Shown piece by piece: positions 2,014 to 5,439 of a stretch of 37,261 nt of DNA. The notes beneath the pieces were generated by a model. It saw only the letters and a list, made by a program, of their open reading frames with translations, was not told the DNA's origin and did not search any database. How positions within the stretch are numbered: the stretch's first letter is position 1; each line of letters starts with the position of its first letter. This stretch comes from Candidatus Stahliibacteriota bacterium (GTDB lineage: Bacteria > Hydrothermota > UBA3073): positions 1 through 37,261 of the forward strand of contig DAOUSS010000003.1 of NCBI GenBank assembly GCA_030627085.1. The letters are read 5' to 3'. The translations under genes and the position numbers were made by a program.

Positions 2014-2634
2014 ATGCAATTATTTCTGTTACCCTTAATATTCCTTGCATCGGAGATAAAACTCCCCAAAGTGGAAACAGGGGATATGTCTCTTGAGGAA
2101 GCAATAAAAAGAAGGAGATCGGTACGAAGTTATGAGAAAACTGAACTCACACTACAACAGCTCTCTCAACTCCTGTGGGCTTCACAGGGCATTACGGATT
2201 CTGTGAGGGGATTTCGTTCTGCTCCATCTGCAGGCGCCCTCTATCCCCTCAAGGTATATCTTATCAAAAAAGATGGTATCTTTGAATATATACCATCTTC
2301 ACATTCAATAGTAAAAAAGGTGGATGGTGATAAAAGAGGAGAACTTTGTAAGGCGGCGCTATGGCAAAGTTTTATAAAGGAGGCGCCTGTAAGTTTTGTC
2401 ATAACCGCCATATACGAACGCACAACTGTAAAATACAGGGAAAGGGGTATAAGGTATGTGCATATAGAGGTGGGCCACTCTGCCCAGAATATTCACCTTG
2501 AGGCAGTTGCTCTGGGGCTCGCATCCGTTCCTGTCGGTGCATTTAAGGACGACGAGGTAAAAAAGGTGCTTTTCCTTCCTCCCTCTGAAGAACCACTGTA
2601 TATAATCCCTGTGGGATATGCAAGGGGACAATGA
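2014..2634 (+). CDS. SagB/ThcOx-like nitroreductase-family FMN oxidoreductase
   Basis: Motifs RRRSVRSY, LSQLLWASQG, RSAPSAGALYP, EVGHSAQNIHL and PVGAF; RBS AAGGAGG upstream. Confidence 0.85.
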   Translation: MQLFLLPLIFLASEIKLPKVETGDMSLEEAIKRRRSVRSYEKTELTLQQLSQLLWASQGITDSVRGFRSAPSAGALYPLKVYLIKKDGIFEYIPSSHSIVKKVDGDKRGELCKAALWQSFIKEAPVSFVITAIYERTTVKYRERGIRYVHIEVGHSAQNIHLEAVALGLASVPVGAFKDDEVKKVLFLPPSEEPLYIIPVGYARGQ

Positions 2635-2647
2635 TGGATTTTTCCCC

Positions 2648-2676
2648 TTGACAGGTGGGAAAAAATGTAGTATAAT
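2648..2676 (+). promoter_or_regulatory. Consensus sigma70 promoter
   Basis: TTGACA (2648-2653), 17-nt spacer, TATAAT (2671-2676). Confidence 0.8.
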
Positions 2677-2684
2677 ATTATTGG

Positions 2685-2837
2685 ATGACGCGAAATTGCA
2701 ATCCACAGAGATCAGATTATAATGGTAGTTATTTCTATTTTCCAGCCCAACCCCATTCCACTAATTGGCTTGATTGGGCACCACCACCCGATAAGTTGAT
2801 CCTTAATCGGAAGGAGGGAGCCCCGCCAATTGAATAA
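2685..2837 (+). other. Candidate leaderless 50-aa ORF and/or structured small RNA
   Basis: ATG lies 8 nt after the -10 box. Translation: MTRNCNPQRSDYNGSYFYFPAQPHSTNWLDWAPPPDKLILNRKEGAPPIE. Nested stems at 2763-2831. Confidence 0.35.
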
Positions 2838-2929
2838 GTTTAGCATAAATATGATGTTATTGCGACATAAAAGTTAAAAAACAGGTTGAAATTTGACATT
2901 ACATATAAAAAGGTAGTGTCAAATAGAAT

Positions 2930-3384
2930 ATGAAAGAATATGACAAACCACACCTGCCTGCCGTCAGGCAGGGAGGTCACAGAGTAAATTTAATTCTCTG
3001 TGCTCTCCAAAAGAGTTTCCTCTGAAAGATATAACGGAAAAGATAATTGCATGTGCGATTGAGGTTCATTCAAACTTGGGTCCTGGATTATTGGAAAGCG
3101 TTTATGAAGAAGCATTGGCATATGAATTTGAGTTGAGGGGAATTAATTTTGAAAGACAAAAAGAGATTATGCTTGAATACAAGGGGAAGAGTATAGGTCC
3201 GCATCGGGTAGATTTTTTAATAGAAGGGCAAGTGATATTAGAGATAAAGGCAACAGAGGGAATGAAGAAGATATTTGAGGCACAGGTTTTAACATATATG
3301 AAAGCAATAAAGAAAAAAGTGGGACTACTTATAAATTTCAATGTAGAAAGGTTGAAAGACGGGATAAAAAGATTGGTCTTATAA
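2930..3384 (+). pseudogene. GxxExxY protein (PD-(D/E)XK nuclease-like fold), 5' end apparently frameshifted by a 20-nt insertion
   Basis: Motifs GPGLLESVYE, RVDFLIEGQVILEIKA, AQVLTY and GLLINF. The typical N-terminus (ITEKIIACAIEVH) lies upstream of the TTG at 3076 with no in-frame ATG. Deleting 2953-2972 joins ATG 2930 in frame. Confidence 0.7.
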
Positions 3385-3457
3385 GAGGTCACAGAGGGGA
3401 GGGAGAACAATCTTTTGTAATTCCTTAATACTGAACATTCTCTGTGTTCTCTGTGGT
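2947..3457. mobile_element. Inverted 9-mer array element enclosing the GxxExxY gene
   Basis: Left end accaca[insert]gag gtcacagag; right end ctctgtgtt ctctgtggt; same end type as the empty copies. Confidence 0.55.
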
Positions 3458-3497
3458 TAGATTTTTGACAATACTCTAATAGAGAATAGGAGGGGAT

Positions 3498-3848
3498 ATG
3501 AAGGACTTAAGTGAACTTCGGATATATAAGCTAGCCGTTGATGTAGGAGAGTTGGTCTGGGAAGGAGTACAGGAATGGGAGAATTTTGCAAAGTGGACAA
3601 TCGGTAAGCAAGTTGTGGAATCCGCTGATGGTATTTCAGCTACTATGATGGAAGGATACTATCGCAACCAACCTGGAGACAAAAGGAAATTCTTCCAATA
3701 TGCACTATCATCTGCGAAAGAGACCGAGCTATGGTGCTGGAAAGCAAAAAATCGCAAAATTATGCCTTTGGAAAGGTATTCAGAGATCAAACAGTTGATA
3801 GATGACCTCTTGCCTCAATTAGTCAATTTCATAAAATCGATCCACTGA
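3498..3848 (+). CDS. Four-helix-bundle protein (23S rRNA IVP / Avd-like family)
   Basis: 116 aa; motifs ELRIYKLA, KQVVESADGISATMMEGYYR and FFQYALSSAKE; RBS AGGAGG. Confidence 0.85.
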   Translation: MKDLSELRIYKLAVDVGELVWEGVQEWENFAKWTIGKQVVESADGISATMMEGYYRNQPGDKRKFFQYALSSAKETELWCWKAKNRKIMPLERYSEIKQLIDDLLPQLVNFIKSIH

Positions 3849-3850
3849 TA

Positions 3851-3892
3851 CACCATTCCCTATTAACCATTCGCCATTCACTATTCACTAAT
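3851..3892 (+). repeat. 7-mer tandem array downstream of the four-helix-bundle gene
   Basis: ccattcc ctattaa ccattcg ccattca ctattca ctaat; short complementary remnant aatagagaatagg at 3478-3490. Confidence 0.75.
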
Positions 3893-3940
3893 CTGCCTAC
3901 CTACCCGCCTGACGGCAGGCAGGTAAGGAATTGAAACGAG

Positions 3941-3968
3941 GTAGGGGCGTATTGCAATACGCCCCTAC
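3941..3968. repeat. GTAG-type REP, perfect 28-bp palindrome between convergent genes
   Basis: GTAGGGGCGTATTGCAATACGCCCCTAC. Confidence 0.9.
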
Positions 3969-4038
3969 AGTTTAGGTGATAGTTATCGTAAAGCGTGAGG
4001 TGTAAATAGTAAATTGGAGGGGGGTAAAGGAATGTAAA

Positions 4039-5439
4039 TTATCCCAGGTTCAAGATGTTTTTTATCTCATCTACGAGTTGGGATACTTTTACTCTCTTCT
4101 GTCCAACCCTTGCTTCAAGCCACTTCTTCCTGTCACCTATCTCTTTCTCTATCCTCTCTTTTGCCCGTAAATCCTTTATTGAAACAATATCTTCTTTAAA
4201 TTCATCCTCACCAATTATTAAAGCAATAGGTATATCTTTCTTATCCGCATACTTCAGTTGTTTTCCAATTCCTTCTTCCCCGAGATAGACCTCTGTATTT
4301 ATGCCGTTCTCCCTCAATTTAAAGGCAAGTTTATGATATTCAACGAGTTTATCTCTCACCATACAGGTAATGAGGACATCTATATTATTCTTCCTTCGTT
4401 TTACAAGTCCCAGTTTCTGCATTGCCAAAACAAGTCTGTCCACACCTATAGATGCGCCTGTAGCAGGTATATCTTTGTCCATAAACTGTCCAATAAGCCT
4501 ATCGTATCTGCCTCCGCCCATAATACTCCCATATCCGGGTGCGTCCAGAAGTATCGCCTCATACACAGGACCTGTATAATAATCCAATCCTCTTGCTACT
4601 ACGAAATCAATTACTACCTTATCTTCGTCAATACCAACACCCTCAAGGTATCTGTCTATCTCTCTTAACTCTTCTATTCCCTCACAGTCTCCAAGAAGTA
4701 AAGTAACTGAATCGAGAGCCTCTTTTTGAGCCGCCTGCGGGAGCATAATAAACTCTTTTATTTTATCAATCTGTTCTTTTTTTAGAAAAAGTCCCCTTAT
4801 CTCTGCACCCGATGCATCAACCCTGCCCTCTCCCAATTCAGCAAGAACAGCATCAAGACCCTGTTTGTCAAGTTTATCAATCACACGAAATACCGAATGT
4901 GAAAGGGATGGCTCTATGCCAGCAAATCTAATCACCTCTTCTAGTATTTTTCTGTTGTTTATCCTTATCTTGAACCTTGCCACTCCGAGTGCCTTTATGG
5001 ACTGATACATAGCAGCTATAATCTCTGCATCTGCTATCACAGAAGAGATTCCAACTGTGTCTATATCAAATTGTAGAAACTCCCTGAACCTCCCCTTGTC
5101 AGGTTTATCATACCTGAATACTTCCTGTATCTGGTATCTTCTGAATGGCATTTCAAGGTTTTTATATTGTGCTATAACACGAGAAAGAGGGGATGTGAGG
5201 TCATACCGCAACCCTATGCTAATCTCATCAGGGTCACGGAAGGTGTATATCTGTTTGTTTGCTTCCTCCCCATACCCTACAAGAATGTCCTTGTATTCAA
5301 GGGCAGGAGTTGCGAGTGGAGAGAATCCATAGGATTCATACACCCTCTTTATTGTGGATACTACCTCCTCACGGGCCACTATCTCATCTGAGAATATGTC
5401 CTTGAATCCCTTGAGTGTTCTGGGTTCTATCTTTTTCAT
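4039..5439 (-). CDS. hisS: Histidine--tRNA ligase
   Basis: Motifs LRYDLT, FRYDKPDKGRFREFLQFDID, RGLDYYTG and GGGRYD; C-terminal anticodon-binding domain (KQLKYADK). Confidence 0.97.
   Translation of the reverse strand: MKKIEPRTLKGFKDIFSDEIVAREEVVSTIKRVYESYGFSPLATPALEYKDILVGYGEEANKQIYTFRDPDEISIGLRYDLTSPLSRVIAQYKNLEMPFRRYQIQEVFRYDKPDKGRFREFLQFDIDTVGISSVIADAEIIAAMYQSIKALGVARFKIRINNRKILEEVIRFAGIEPSLSHSVFRVIDKLDKQGLDAVLAELGEGRVDASGAEIRGLFLKKEQIDKIKEFIMLPQAAQKEALDSVTLLLGDCEGIEELREIDRYLEGVGIDEDKVVIDFVVARGLDYYTGPVYEAILLDAPGYGSIMGGGRYDRLIGQFMDKDIPATGASIGVDRLVLAMQKLGLVKRRKNNIDVLITCMVRDKLVEYHKLAFKLRENGINTEVYLGEEGIGKQLKYADKKDIPIALIIGEDEFKEDIVSIKDLRAKERIEKEIGDRKKWLEARVGQKRVKVSQLVDEIKNILNLG

What the first reader, a model, noticed from the sequence alone, without database searches (positions are those of the whole stretch)
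2930..3384. A 20-nt palindrome frameshifts the GxxExxY gene; removing it restores both the ORF and the repeat
Seen: CCTGCCTGCCGTCAGGCAGG (2953-2972) splits accaca|gaggtcacagag. Deleting exactly these 20 nt rebuilds the 9-mer unit ACCACAGAG. It also gives one continuous frame from ATG 2930: MKEYDKPQRSQSKFNSLCSPKEFPLKDITEKIIACAIEVH...GPGLLESVYE. With the insert present there is no in-frame ATG upstream of the conserved N-terminus. Inference: the palindrome is a clean insertion without an evident target duplication that inactivates (or switches) the gene.
Basis: partly seen in the sequence, partly recalled or inferred. Interest (0 to 1): 0.75.

Follow-up and report, generated by a model that had tools for sequence, protein, structure and literature searches.

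The report
Tiny mobile palindrome splits nuclease gene
A 20-base hairpin-forming repeat that jumps around this uncultured bacterium's genome without leaving a footprint has landed between the start codon and the body of a small nuclease-like gene, cutting its reading frame.

Summary
CCTGCCTGCCGTCAGGCAGG lies at 2953-2972. It separates ATG 2930 (frame 2) from the GxxExxY body (frame 1), which has no ATG/GTG/TTG before TTG 3076.

It is a true insertion. A same-genus allele carries a different 38-nt insert at the same bond.

The palindrome is a dispersed repeat: 94 loci in this 1.93-Mb WOR-3 (Stahlbacteria) genome, found in 14 of 41 relatives searched (own genome included) and in 58 IMG/VR stretches. 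Cutting out exactly 20 nt recreates sequence found elsewhere in the genome for 27 of 91 copies (random cuts: 1 of 5000). So the element is exactly 20 nt and makes no target duplication. It is mostly extragenic, mostly single, often nested in other hairpins, and has no end tag and no adjacent RAYT.

The mover is unknown. A hairpin-specific Y1 or GIY-YIG enzyme is only inferred.

The effect on the gene is open. The long ORF is broken, but the body is intact and conserved (dN/dS 0.03 against the other interrupted allele).

Earlier scan notes describe what is probably the same 20-bp palindrome on other DNA.

It is a new variant of REP/SDR-like mini-elements.

The parts
2953..2972 (+). 20-nt mobile palindrome CCTGCCTGCCGTCAGGCAGG, 8-bp stem and 4-nt loop: the insert
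   Evidence: 14 exact copies and 94 loci at up to 3 mismatches in the own genome; excising exactly 20 nt restores sequence found elsewhere.
2912..2952 (+). Left part of the dispersed host repeat (GTAGTGTCAAATAGAATATGAAAGAATATGACAAACCACA). It carries ATG 2930-2932, the start of the uninterrupted 144-aa ORF.
   Evidence: copies in C73, C83, C104, C156, C245 and others, with or without a gene behind them; 40 copies in G001-G007; 144-aa ORF in G005:C8.
2973..3012 (+). Host word-armed hairpin GAGGTCACAGAG-TAAATTTAATT-CTCTGTGCTCTCC. The palindrome abuts its 5' foot.
   Evidence: RNA fold, both hairpins side by side, MFE -31.8 kcal/mol, z -3.6; the same design in cassettes of other phyla.
2930..3025 (+). 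Frame-2 ORF of 31 codons that starts at the true ATG and runs into TGA 3023-3025 because of the +20 shift
2944..3384 (+). Frame-1 open frame holding the GxxExxY (TIGR04256, PD-(D/E)XK-like) body. It is closed upstream by TGA 2941-2943 and ends at stop TAA 3382-3384. The first canonical start is TTG 3076. Non-canonical CTG codons lie at 2998 and 3022.
   Evidence: TIGR04256 at 148 bits against a cut-off of 35; 128-aa homologues start at the codon homologous to 2998.
2970..2992 (+). AGGGAGG (2970-2976, created by the insert's 3' end plus GAGG), a 9-nt spacer, then A_AAT_TTA (2986-2992) in the -1 slippery phase of the ATG-2930 frame. Speculative frameshift site.
   Evidence: Read. The same phase and the same GGGAGG occur in the 38-nt allele. 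The resemblance to dnaX is recalled, not tested.
3385..3475 (+). 3' module of the cassette: a direct repeat of GAGGTCACAGAG, a second word-armed hairpin (CTCTGTGTTCTCTGTGG) and TTAGATTTTTGACAATACT
   Evidence: about 60 copies of the 3' part in the genome..
3904..3923 (-). Second copy of the palindrome family in the window (CCTGCCTGCCGTCAGGCGGG, 1 mismatch)

Best explanation
The 20-nt palindrome is one copy of a non-autonomous, footprint-free mobile mini-element. It is REP/SDR-like: a single hairpin with no end tag, no target duplication and no gene of its own.

It, or a host-repeat module already carrying it, entered the 5' coding extension of a GxxExxY nuclease-like gene cassette. The entry point is the 5' foot of the cassette's word-armed hairpin, at ACCACA^GAGGTCACAGAG. 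This spot is hit repeatedly by several families of small palindromes.

The +20 nt shift uncouples the cassette's ATG (2930) from the conserved body. The normal 144-aa protein therefore cannot be made by ordinary translation.

Shown: the insertion, its exact edges, its multiplicity, the empty alleles and the broken long ORF.

Inferred: the element moves as a DNA hairpin handled by a trans-acting structure-specific enzyme. A Y1/HUH RAYT-like transposase is the leading candidate and a small GIY-YIG nuclease the alternative. Also inferred: the event is recent, so the gene is newly silenced or strongly down-regulated rather than long dead.
For: 1. Empty and filled alleles at one bond. G005:C8 is empty with a 144-aa ORF. 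The window has the 20-nt insert. G003:C169 has a 38-nt insert. P0001 equals the predicted restored protein.

2. Copy number. There are 94 loci in the own genome. The element is found in 14 of the 41 genomes searched, own genome included, with the reversed-pattern control at 0. There are 58 IMG/VR stretches with GC from 36 to 71%.

3. Exact 20-nt excision recreates an 11+11-mer present elsewhere for 27 of 91 copies. Cuts of 19 or 21 nt give at most 2 per offset cell, and random cuts give 1 of 5000. By BLAST, 55 of 91 copies have a junction-spanning paralogue; most of the listed matches are gapless.

4. Hot spot. Of 40 host-repeat copies in G001-G007, 20 carry this family at ACCACA^GAGG and 11 are empty there. 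The other 9 carry four other small palindromes at or next to the bond.

5. The hairpin matters. The sister family CCTGTC-N4-GACAGG (38 loci) differs by a compensatory pair, and mixed arms are rare at 5+5 matches.

6. The N-terminal extension is translated in intact alleles. Other phyla have a Shine-Dalgarno sequence plus ATG directly before CCACAGAG and keep the frame. EFPLK[DE], upstream of the family profile, varies like a peptide.

7. Recency. The copy is identical to the commonest variant. Window 2912-2984 is 100% identical to G003:C97, while the gene stretch differs by about 13%.
Against: No mobilising enzyme is tied to the element.

- The one RAYT-like gene with flanking REPs in this genome (C264) is flanked by a different GTAG-tagged REP.
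- Y1_Tnp is present in 13 of 14 palindrome-positive genomes but also in 18 of 27 palindrome-negative ones.
- It was found in none of 5 multi-copy viral records.
- Flanks show no conserved target motif, at most 0.56 bit. IS200/IS605 elements have one.

Against silencing: the body has no stop or frameshift. dN/dS is 0.033 against the other interrupted allele, from 24 synonymous and 4 non-synonymous differences. The filled cassette with an intact gene recurs in unrelated flanks (L232). Homologues of 128 aa start at the codon homologous to CTG 2998, so a weak non-AUG start cannot be excluded.

ATG 2930 has no obvious Shine-Dalgarno sequence.

The filled state at this locus may have come by gene conversion from another filled host repeat rather than by a fresh transposition.
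Confidence: 0.7

Rival explanations
1. The insert is tolerated and the gene still works. Translation of the body would start at a non-canonical codon behind the insert: CTG 2998, homologous to the ATG/TTG start of the 128-aa homologues, or CTG 3022. Alternatively the long N-terminal extension is dispensable. On this view the palindrome is only a 5'-leader passenger.
For: The body is intact and dN/dS is 0.033-0.043 against its closest alleles. Two independently interrupted alleles, the window and G003, both keep perfect bodies. L232 carries the filled cassette with an intact gene elsewhere. Homologues P0069, P0074 and P0082 start M-C/Y-A-Q at the codon aligned with 2998, and P0066 and P0106 start with L there. 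P0008, the G003-type allele, is annotated from the codon aligned with 3022.
Against: CTG is a rare bacterial start (general knowledge). No Shine-Dalgarno sequence lies 5-10 nt before 2998 or 3022. In other phyla codon 3022 is TTA, an internal Leu. EFPLK upstream of 3022 is conserved as a peptide, so a start at 3022 would lose it. The conservation could simply predate a recent insertion.
Confidence: 0.25
2. No transposition occurred at this locus. The palindrome arrived by homologous recombination or gene conversion between copies of the host repeat, some of which already carried it. The whole filled cassette is then the unit that spreads.
For: The host repeat plus palindrome (window 2912-2984) is 100% identical to gene-less copies such as G003:C97, and near-identical to own C311. 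20 of 40 host repeats in relatives are filled at the same bond. L232 is the same filled cassette, about 97% identical, in unrelated flanks. Its central gene tract matches G005-type alleles, which is a mosaic.
Against: This only moves the original insertion to another copy. Across the genome the element sits in many unrelated contexts with exact 20-nt edges. The same bond holds four other insert types and both loop orientations of this family (L202 against L185). That pattern fits repeated targeting.
Confidence: 0.3
3. The palindrome is an assembly or sequencing artefact, such as an adapter or a chimeric junction, and is not present in the organism's DNA.
For: It is a short, near-perfect palindrome seen in many metagenome assemblies. 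The own genome is a fragmented MAG of 347 contigs.
Against: The family has lineage-specific sequence variants. It has compensatory sister families. It is present in some genera and not found in others of the same phylum. It has fixed sites shared between independent assemblies. It is also present in Logan contigs of independent runs: X1 record 3 covers 2911-2970.
Confidence: 0.02

Closest known systems
REPs (repetitive extragenic palindromes), GTAG- and CGTC-tagged superfamilies, with RAYT (TnpA-REP) Y1 transposases. Sources: Di Nocera et al. 2013, PMC3733652 (abstract, section 6 and passages read); Bertels & Rainey 2011, PMC3116915 (passages read).
   Same: A 20-40-bp imperfect palindrome in high copy and mostly extragenic (18 of 94 copies in long open frames against 85% of the genome). 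It is sometimes inside genes and is often inserted within other palindromes. A RAYT-like Y1 gene flanked by REPs exists in this genome.
   Different: There is no unpaired GTAG or CGTC tag at an end; those tetramers sit in the centre of the hairpin and the flanks carry at most 0.56 bit. Copies are mostly single rather than REPIN doublets, with 4 pairs within 300 nt among 94. The RAYT-like gene is flanked by another REP. The same 20 nt recur across families of the phylum and in viral contigs. Exact footprint-free gain is shown directly.
Small dispersed repeats (SDR) of heterocystous cyanobacteria: Elhai et al. 2008, Genome Res 18:1484. The paper is not held. It was seen only in reference lists, and its content is recalled.
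   Same: As recalled: 21-27-nt hairpin repeats, nested in one another and in other repeats, gained and lost without target duplication, in genomes rich in tandem heptamer words.
   Different: A different phylum (WOR-3) and a different sequence. The size is 20 nt. Here one copy breaks a coding frame. I could not compare sequences or check the paper's details.
IS200/IS605-family single-strand transposition and its non-autonomous derivatives (PATEs). General knowledge; the abstract of PMC6006769 was seen in a search listing.
   Same: No target duplication, hairpin-dependent, and precise seamless excision is possible. That would make such an insert reversible.
   Different: Those elements need two different subterminal hairpins and insert 3' of a fixed tetra- or pentanucleotide. 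Here there is one 20-nt hairpin and no conserved flank.
Rickettsia palindromic elements (RPE) inside ORFs, as described in PMC3733652 (Background passage)
   Same: Small palindromic repeats found inside protein-coding genes.
   Different: RPEs are longer and are inserted in frame, adding a peptide segment. This 20-nt element cannot be in frame and shifts the reading frame by +2.
ORF-bearing word-armed hairpin cassettes: GxxExxY and four-helix-bundle or 23S-IVS-type genes. From earlier scan notes e1-3383247, e1-3383252 and e1-3383248.
   Same: The host of the insert is such a cassette: ATG, then CACAGAG words, a loop, CTCTGTG words, the gene, then a second hairpin. It is conserved in WOR-3, Zixibacteria, Nitrospirota, Lentisphaerae and others.
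   Different: Those notes concern the cassette itself. The present finding is a second, much smaller element that lands in it.

Membership tests
REP (tagged REP superfamilies of Di Nocera et al. 2013) | Short (20-40 bp) imperfect palindrome present in many dispersed copies | tested here: met
   94 loci at up to 3 mismatches, 14 of them exact, in 1.93 Mb. 0 expected by chance in the window.
REP (tagged REP superfamilies of Di Nocera et al. 2013) | Predominantly extragenic | tested here: met
   18 of 94 copies lie inside stop-free frames of at least 120 codons, against 85.4% of all genome positions. This is an ORF proxy, not a gene annotation.
REP (tagged REP superfamilies of Di Nocera et al. 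2013) | Unpaired GTAG or CGTC tag at one end of the stem | tested here: not met
   The 8 positions on each flank carry at most 0.56 bit in 92 copies. CGTC- and GTAG-like tetramers lie in the centre of the palindrome.
REP/RAYT system | A RAYT (Y1 HUH) gene flanked by copies of the same REP | tested here: not met
   The own-genome RAYT-like gene (C264) is flanked by GTAGCCCACYGCTTTAGCRGTGGG, not by this palindrome. No Y1 hit lies on the same contig within 1.5 kb of a listed palindrome in G012, G014, G016, G017 or G037. Those lists were truncated, so the test is incomplete.
REPIN (Bertels & Rainey 2011) | Replicative unit is an inverted doublet of REPs about 70-110 bp apart | tested here: not met
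   Only 4 pairs lie within 300 nt among 94 copies, 3 of them in direct orientation. Single 20-nt units are gained.
IS200/IS605-derived non-autonomous elements | No target duplication | tested here: met
   The excision test peaks at exactly 20 nt. Cuts of 19 or 21 nt give at most 2 per offset cell of 91 copies.
IS200/IS605-derived non-autonomous elements | Insertion 3' of a conserved tetra- or pentanucleotide, and distinct left and right subterminal hairpins | tested here: not met
   No conserved flank. The element is a single hairpin of 20 nt.
MITE | Terminal inverted repeats plus a target-site duplication, length about 70-300 bp | tested here: not met
   20 nt and no duplication.
SDR (Elhai et al. 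2008) | A 21-27-nt hairpin repeat nested in other repeats and gained without a footprint (features recalled) | tested here: inconclusive
   Nesting and footprint-free gain are met. The size of 20 nt lies just outside the recalled range. Sequence relatedness was not testable because the paper is not held.
GxxExxY protein (TIGR04256 / PF13366) | Profile match above the curated cut-off | tested here: met
   148.2 bits against a cut-off of 35, covering profile positions 1-116 of 116. Homologues carry PF13366.
Rickettsia-type in-frame palindromic insertions (RPE) | Insert length is a multiple of three and the host ORF is kept | tested here: not met
   20 nt equals 2 mod 3. The ATG-2930 frame stops at 3023-3025.

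The most novel reading that the evidence does not exclude
The insert does not kill the gene. It converts the gene into a frameshift-dependent one.

Both independent inserts at this bond are 3n+2: 20 nt here and 38 nt in the sister species. Both end in GG, so that with the host GAGG they create AGGGAGG or GGGAGG. Nine nucleotides further on, both put the loop heptamer A_AAT_TTA (2986-2992) into the exact X_XXY_YYZ phase of the ATG-2930 frame.

A -1 slip there would return the ribosome to the GxxExxY frame. The layout resembles dnaX, with an internal Shine-Dalgarno sequence about 10 nt before the slippery site; this comparison is recalled, not tested.

The tiny mobile hairpin would then act as a dimmer of a selfish nuclease cassette. 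If it is excised precisely by a hairpin-specific enzyme, it would be a reversible switch. This would fit the strong purifying selection on the interrupted alleles (dN/dS 0.03).
Probability: 0.07. Interest if true: 0.8.

Novelty: new variant of a known kind. Interest (0 to 1): 0.6.

Why it matters
Direct evidence that a REP-sized palindrome moves as a single unit is scarce. REPs are thought to move as doublets with a RAYT. As I recall, the cyanobacterial SDRs are the only described elements of this size that are gained and lost cleanly.

Here a 20-nt hairpin shows three things:
- exact, footprint-free presence or absence at orthologous and paralogous sites;
- a hot spot shared with four other mini-palindromes;
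- the same sequence in several families of one phylum and in viral contigs, including inside tRNA genes.

That defines a tractable system for asking which enzyme moves the smallest known mobile DNA, and what it recognises. The evidence points to hairpin feet and loops rather than to a sequence.

For annotation, such inserts split real genes. They produce truncated or oddly started gene calls, as in P0008 and the 102-aa TTG ORF here.

Tried and rejected
- Reads. The look-up of sequencing runs listed 22 runs (20 holders of the stretch), all Logan DNA contigs, with no RNA holder listed. Laying 4 runs gave contigs that break at the repeats. None bridges from 2952 into gene-specific DNA beyond about 3010. 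So there is no answer on insert-free alleles in the source population, on expression, or on RNA-level removal of the hairpin.
- Rfam. Nothing meaningful in 2400-4100; the best E-value was 0.21.
- Orthologous intergenic DNA around the second copy (3904-3923) is not conserved within the genus, so no empty-or-filled call was possible there.
- Y1_Tnp co-occurrence across 41 genomes does not discriminate. There is no Y1_Tnp in 5 multi-copy viral records.
- GIY-YIG lead from earlier notes. PF01541 is in all 41 genomes, partly as UvrC. By my reading of the lists, about 12 of 14 palindrome-positive genomes have small GIY-YIG ORFs, against about 12-13 of 27 negative ones. Only 1 of about 11 small GIY-YIG genes checked against the printed palindrome lists is adjacent to a copy (G016:C4). 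The own-genome small GIY-YIG gene (C339) has no copy within 375 nt. This is suggestive but not established.
- The cassette's relatives in five other phyla do not carry the palindrome, with 0, 1, 0, 0 and 1 weak hits. So it does not travel with the cassette.
- Literature. No paper in the held library contains any of four 20-mer variants. 'GxxExxY' occurs in 3 papers, none on this topic. Elhai 2008 could not be read.
- A first fuzzy-regex version of the boundary test timed out and was replaced by an exact k-mer test.
- Using L232 to date selection after the insertion was rejected. Its differences are clustered and match G005-type alleles, which indicates a recombination mosaic.

Full report
**1. 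Observation**

The window reads ...ATGAAAGAATATGACAAACCACA[CCTGCCTGCCGTCAGGCAGG]GAGGTCACAGAGTAAATTTAATTCTCTGTGCTCTCC..., with the bracketed 20-mer at 2953-2972. It has an 8-bp stem and a 4-nt loop. Shuffles expect 0 such matches, and a second copy with 1 mismatch lies at 3904-3923 on the minus strand.

ATG 2930 opens a 31-codon frame that ends at TGA 3023-3025. The frame of the GxxExxY body is open from 2944 to TAA 3382-3384, and its first ATG/GTG/TTG is TTG 3076. The body matches TIGR04256 at 148 bits against a cut-off of 35.

**2. It is an insertion**

A three-way alignment of the cassette was decisive.
- G005:C8, another genus of the same family, reads AAACCACA|GAGGTCACAGAG without interruption. 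It has a 144-aa ORF from the same ATG, MKEYDKPQRSQSKFNSLCSPKEFPLKDITEKII....
- The window has the 20-mer at that bond.
- G003:C169, the same genus, has a different 38-nt insert at exactly the same bond. It also has a further 20-nt insert just before the stop codon.

Within the own genome, paralogous copies of the surrounding repeat are uninterrupted in C73 and C83. A metagenome record, L232, holds the same cassette at about 97% identity. It carries the palindrome with A instead of G at position 8, an intact gene, and unrelated flanks. This rules out a local assembly error.

**3. What the 20-mer is**

It is a dispersed repeat. There are 14 exact copies and 94 loci at up to 3 mismatches in the 1.93-Mb, 347-contig genome.

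Cutting out exactly those 20 nt and joining 11+11 flanking bases gives a 22-mer that exists elsewhere in the genome for 27 of 91 testable copies. Cuts of 19 or 21 nt succeed at most twice per offset cell. Random 20-nt cuts succeed 1 time in 5000. The same-length cuts shifted by one base gave 11 and 8, which reflects sliding over identical bases.

With BLAST, 55 of 91 joined flanks have a paralogue that spans the junction; most of the listed matches are gapless. This test only works where the flanks are themselves repeated, so it cannot measure any preference for repeats.

The element is therefore exactly 20 nt and leaves no target duplication. Its other properties:
- Of the 27 well-supported cases, about half sit in the loop of a sister palindrome, at CCTGTCTAC^CGACAGG or CCTGTCG^GTAGACAGG. 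Others sit at the centre of unrelated hairpins.
- Flanks carry at most 0.56 bit, so there is no tag or target motif.
- Only 4 pairs lie within 300 nt, so copies are mostly single.
- 18 of 94 copies lie in open frames of at least 120 codons, against 85% of the genome.
- The sister family CCTGTC-N4-GACAGG (38 loci) differs by a compensatory base pair, and mixed arms are rare. The hairpin is what is kept.
- The genome holds many other small palindrome families.

**4. Distribution**

At up to 2 mismatches the palindrome occurs in 14 of the 41 genomes searched, the own genome included. These cover all 3 other genomes of the genus, 3 of 4 others in the family, and members of four further families. 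It was not found in the other 27. The reversed-sequence control gave 0 everywhere.

A degenerate form occurs in 58 IMG/VR stretches with GC from 36 to 71%, and 40 of these are the perfect palindrome. There it again splits word arrays. In three cases it splits tRNA genes. ARAGORN still calls L144 a tRNA-Met, with the palindrome as a long variable arm.

Five genomes of other phyla that carry the closest GxxExxY cassettes lack the palindrome.

No paper in the held library contains the sequence.

Earlier notes of this scan (e1-4401860, e1-847609, e1-1077007, e1-1288260) describe a 20-bp GC palindrome with the same behaviour in other phyla and phages. Their letters are hidden, so identity with this element is probable but not verified.

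**5. The target**

ATG 2930 and the following CCACAGAG words belong to a dispersed host repeat, which also occurs without any gene. The gene is flanked by direct repeats of GAGGTCACAGAG, at 2973-2984 and 3385-3396.

The cassette design is conserved in WOR-3, Zixibacteria, Desulfurellaceae, Lentisphaerae, Nitrospirota, Deltaproteobacteria and others, at 66-97% protein identity. It runs: ATG, CACAGAG words, a loop, CTCTGTG words, (K/E)EFPLKD, the gene, then a second word hairpin.

Of 40 host-repeat copies fetched from G001-G007:
- 20 carry this palindrome family at ACCACA^GAGG;
- 11 are empty there;
- 9 carry four other small palindromes at or beside the bond.

One of those four is an 18-mer. 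With a nested 20-mer, it makes up the 38-nt insert of G003.

In the RNA fold the palindrome hairpin abuts the 5' foot of the host hairpin. The bond is therefore a structural hot spot. Some filled copies may have multiplied as units, so the count of 20 is not a count of separate events.

**6. Consequence for the gene**

In intact alleles the N-terminal extension is translated. Several alleles from other phyla have a clear Shine-Dalgarno sequence and ATG directly before CCACAGAG, for example aaggagaaaatATGaaaccacagag in L031, and similarly in L030, L034, L035, L037 and L040. Their frames run into the body. The segment EFPLK[DE], upstream of the family profile, varies as a peptide does. The codon at 3022 is TTA in those phyla, so it is an internal Leu and not a start.

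With the insert, the normal protein cannot be made by ordinary initiation at ATG 2930.

Several observations argue against a long-dead gene.
- The body is intact.
- The window and the G003 allele, both interrupted, differ by 24 synonymous and 4 non-synonymous changes, giving dN/dS 0.033.
- The filled cassette with an intact gene recurs in L232.

L232's differences are a recombination mosaic, so they cannot date selection after the insertion.

The insert copy equals the commonest variant. Window 2912-2984 is 100% identical to a gene-less copy in G003, while the gene stretch differs by about 13%. So the filled 5' module is young, or it is homogenised by recombination.

Homologues of 128 aa start at the codon aligned with CTG 2998, so a weak non-AUG start is conceivable.

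My split of the probabilities is roughly:
- 0.55 newly silenced or strongly reduced;
- 0.25 tolerated through a non-canonical start;
- 0.07 rescued by -1 frameshifting;
- the remainder is unresolved.

**7. Who moves it**

This is inferred, not shown. Footprint-free gain, dependence on the hairpin and targeting of hairpin feet and loops point to a structure-specific single-strand DNA enzyme.

The genome has five Y1_Tnp matches. One is a 171-aa RAYT-like gene flanked by inverted GTAG-tagged REPs of another sequence, with a relative of the sister palindrome about 110 nt away. Y1 presence does not track the palindrome across the 41 genomes and is missing from 5 multi-copy viral records.

The GIY-YIG lead from earlier notes was partly reproduced. 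In G016 the palindrome sits in the D-loop of a tRNA-Arg 5' remnant, 35 nt before an 84-aa GIY-YIG ORF, with the intact tRNA downstream. Most copies, however, are far from such genes.

**8. Comparison and verdict**

The element works like a REP or SDR. It fails the defining tests for tagged REPs (no end tag), REPINs (not doublets), REP/RAYT pairs (no flanking RAYT), IS200/IS605 derivatives (no fixed target, only one hairpin) and MITEs (no duplication).

It is best filed as a new variant of the small palindromic mobile repeats. In this window it is caught breaking a gene, with the empty allele preserved in a relative.

Noticed in passing
window 2912-3475; L232; L026-L046: The whole GxxExxY cassette (5' word hairpin, gene, 3' word hairpin ending in TTTTTGACAATACT) occurs at 66-97% protein identity in MAGs labelled WOR-3, Zixibacteria, Desulfurellaceae, Lentisphaerae, Nitrospirota, Deltaproteobacteria, Sumerlaeota and Calditrichia. 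In L232 it sits in flanks unrelated to the window's. The gene is bracketed by a 12-nt direct repeat, GAGGTCACAGAG. The cassette looks mobile or horizontally exchanged.
   Followed up: partly
L144 (IMG/VR) 156-247; L110; L158: In viral contigs the same 20-nt palindrome lies inside tRNA genes. In L110 and L144 it is in the variable loop of a tRNA-Met(CAT), and ARAGORN still calls L144 as a 92-nt tRNA. In L158 it is in a D-arm (GGTAGCTCAGTTGGTA|GAGCG).
   Followed up: partly
L180 = G016:C4:164900-165800: A tRNA-Arg 5' remnant with the palindrome in its D-loop is followed 35 nt later by an 84-aa GIY-YIG ORF. An intact tRNA-Arg(CCT) overlaps that ORF's 3' end. This is the tRNA-targeting GIY-YIG cassette described in earlier scan notes, here in the same class as the window's organism.
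   Followed up: partly
L009 = G000:C264:2308-5649, positions 1361-1384 and 1949-1972: A 171-aa Y1 (IS200-like, RAYT-type) gene is flanked by inverted GTAG-tagged REPs, GTAGCCCACYGCTTTAGCRGTGGG. This is a classical REP-RAYT arrangement in a WOR-3 genome. Only 3 loci of that REP were found.
   Followed up: partly
L015/L026 (G003:C169), cassette 5' and 3' ends: A second family of 20-nt inserts (CCTTACGGATCCGTATGGAT / CCGTGCGGATCCGTATGAAT). One copy is nested in an 18-nt palindrome at the 5' hot spot. Another sits just before the stop codon, giving the read-through C-terminus of database protein P0008.
   Followed up: partly
G000:C146:4029-4048 and C245:2338-2357: The variant palindrome CCTGTCTGCCGACAGGCAAG is inserted just before the stop codon of a GxxExxY remnant (C146). 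It also occurs at the 5' hot spot of a gene-less host repeat (C245), followed in both by ATAAGAGGTCAC. This suggests recombination between cassette ends.
   Followed up: no
window 2886-2905; G000:C207:7137-7248; C188:1-68: CAGGTTGAAATTTGACATTACA is a repeated promoter-like segment containing TTGACA. In two other contigs it lies directly upstream of a ribosome-binding site and ATG of unrelated genes.
   Followed up: no
own genome, many contigs: Many other small palindrome families are present, for example CGCAGACTGAAGTCTGCG (about 32 copies), CGCAACTTAAAAGTTGCG (about 32) and GCACAAATTCAATTTGTGC (about 25). Several are preceded by GTAG. Many contigs begin or end in the cassette's 3' repeat, so the repeats fragment the assembly.
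   Followed up: no
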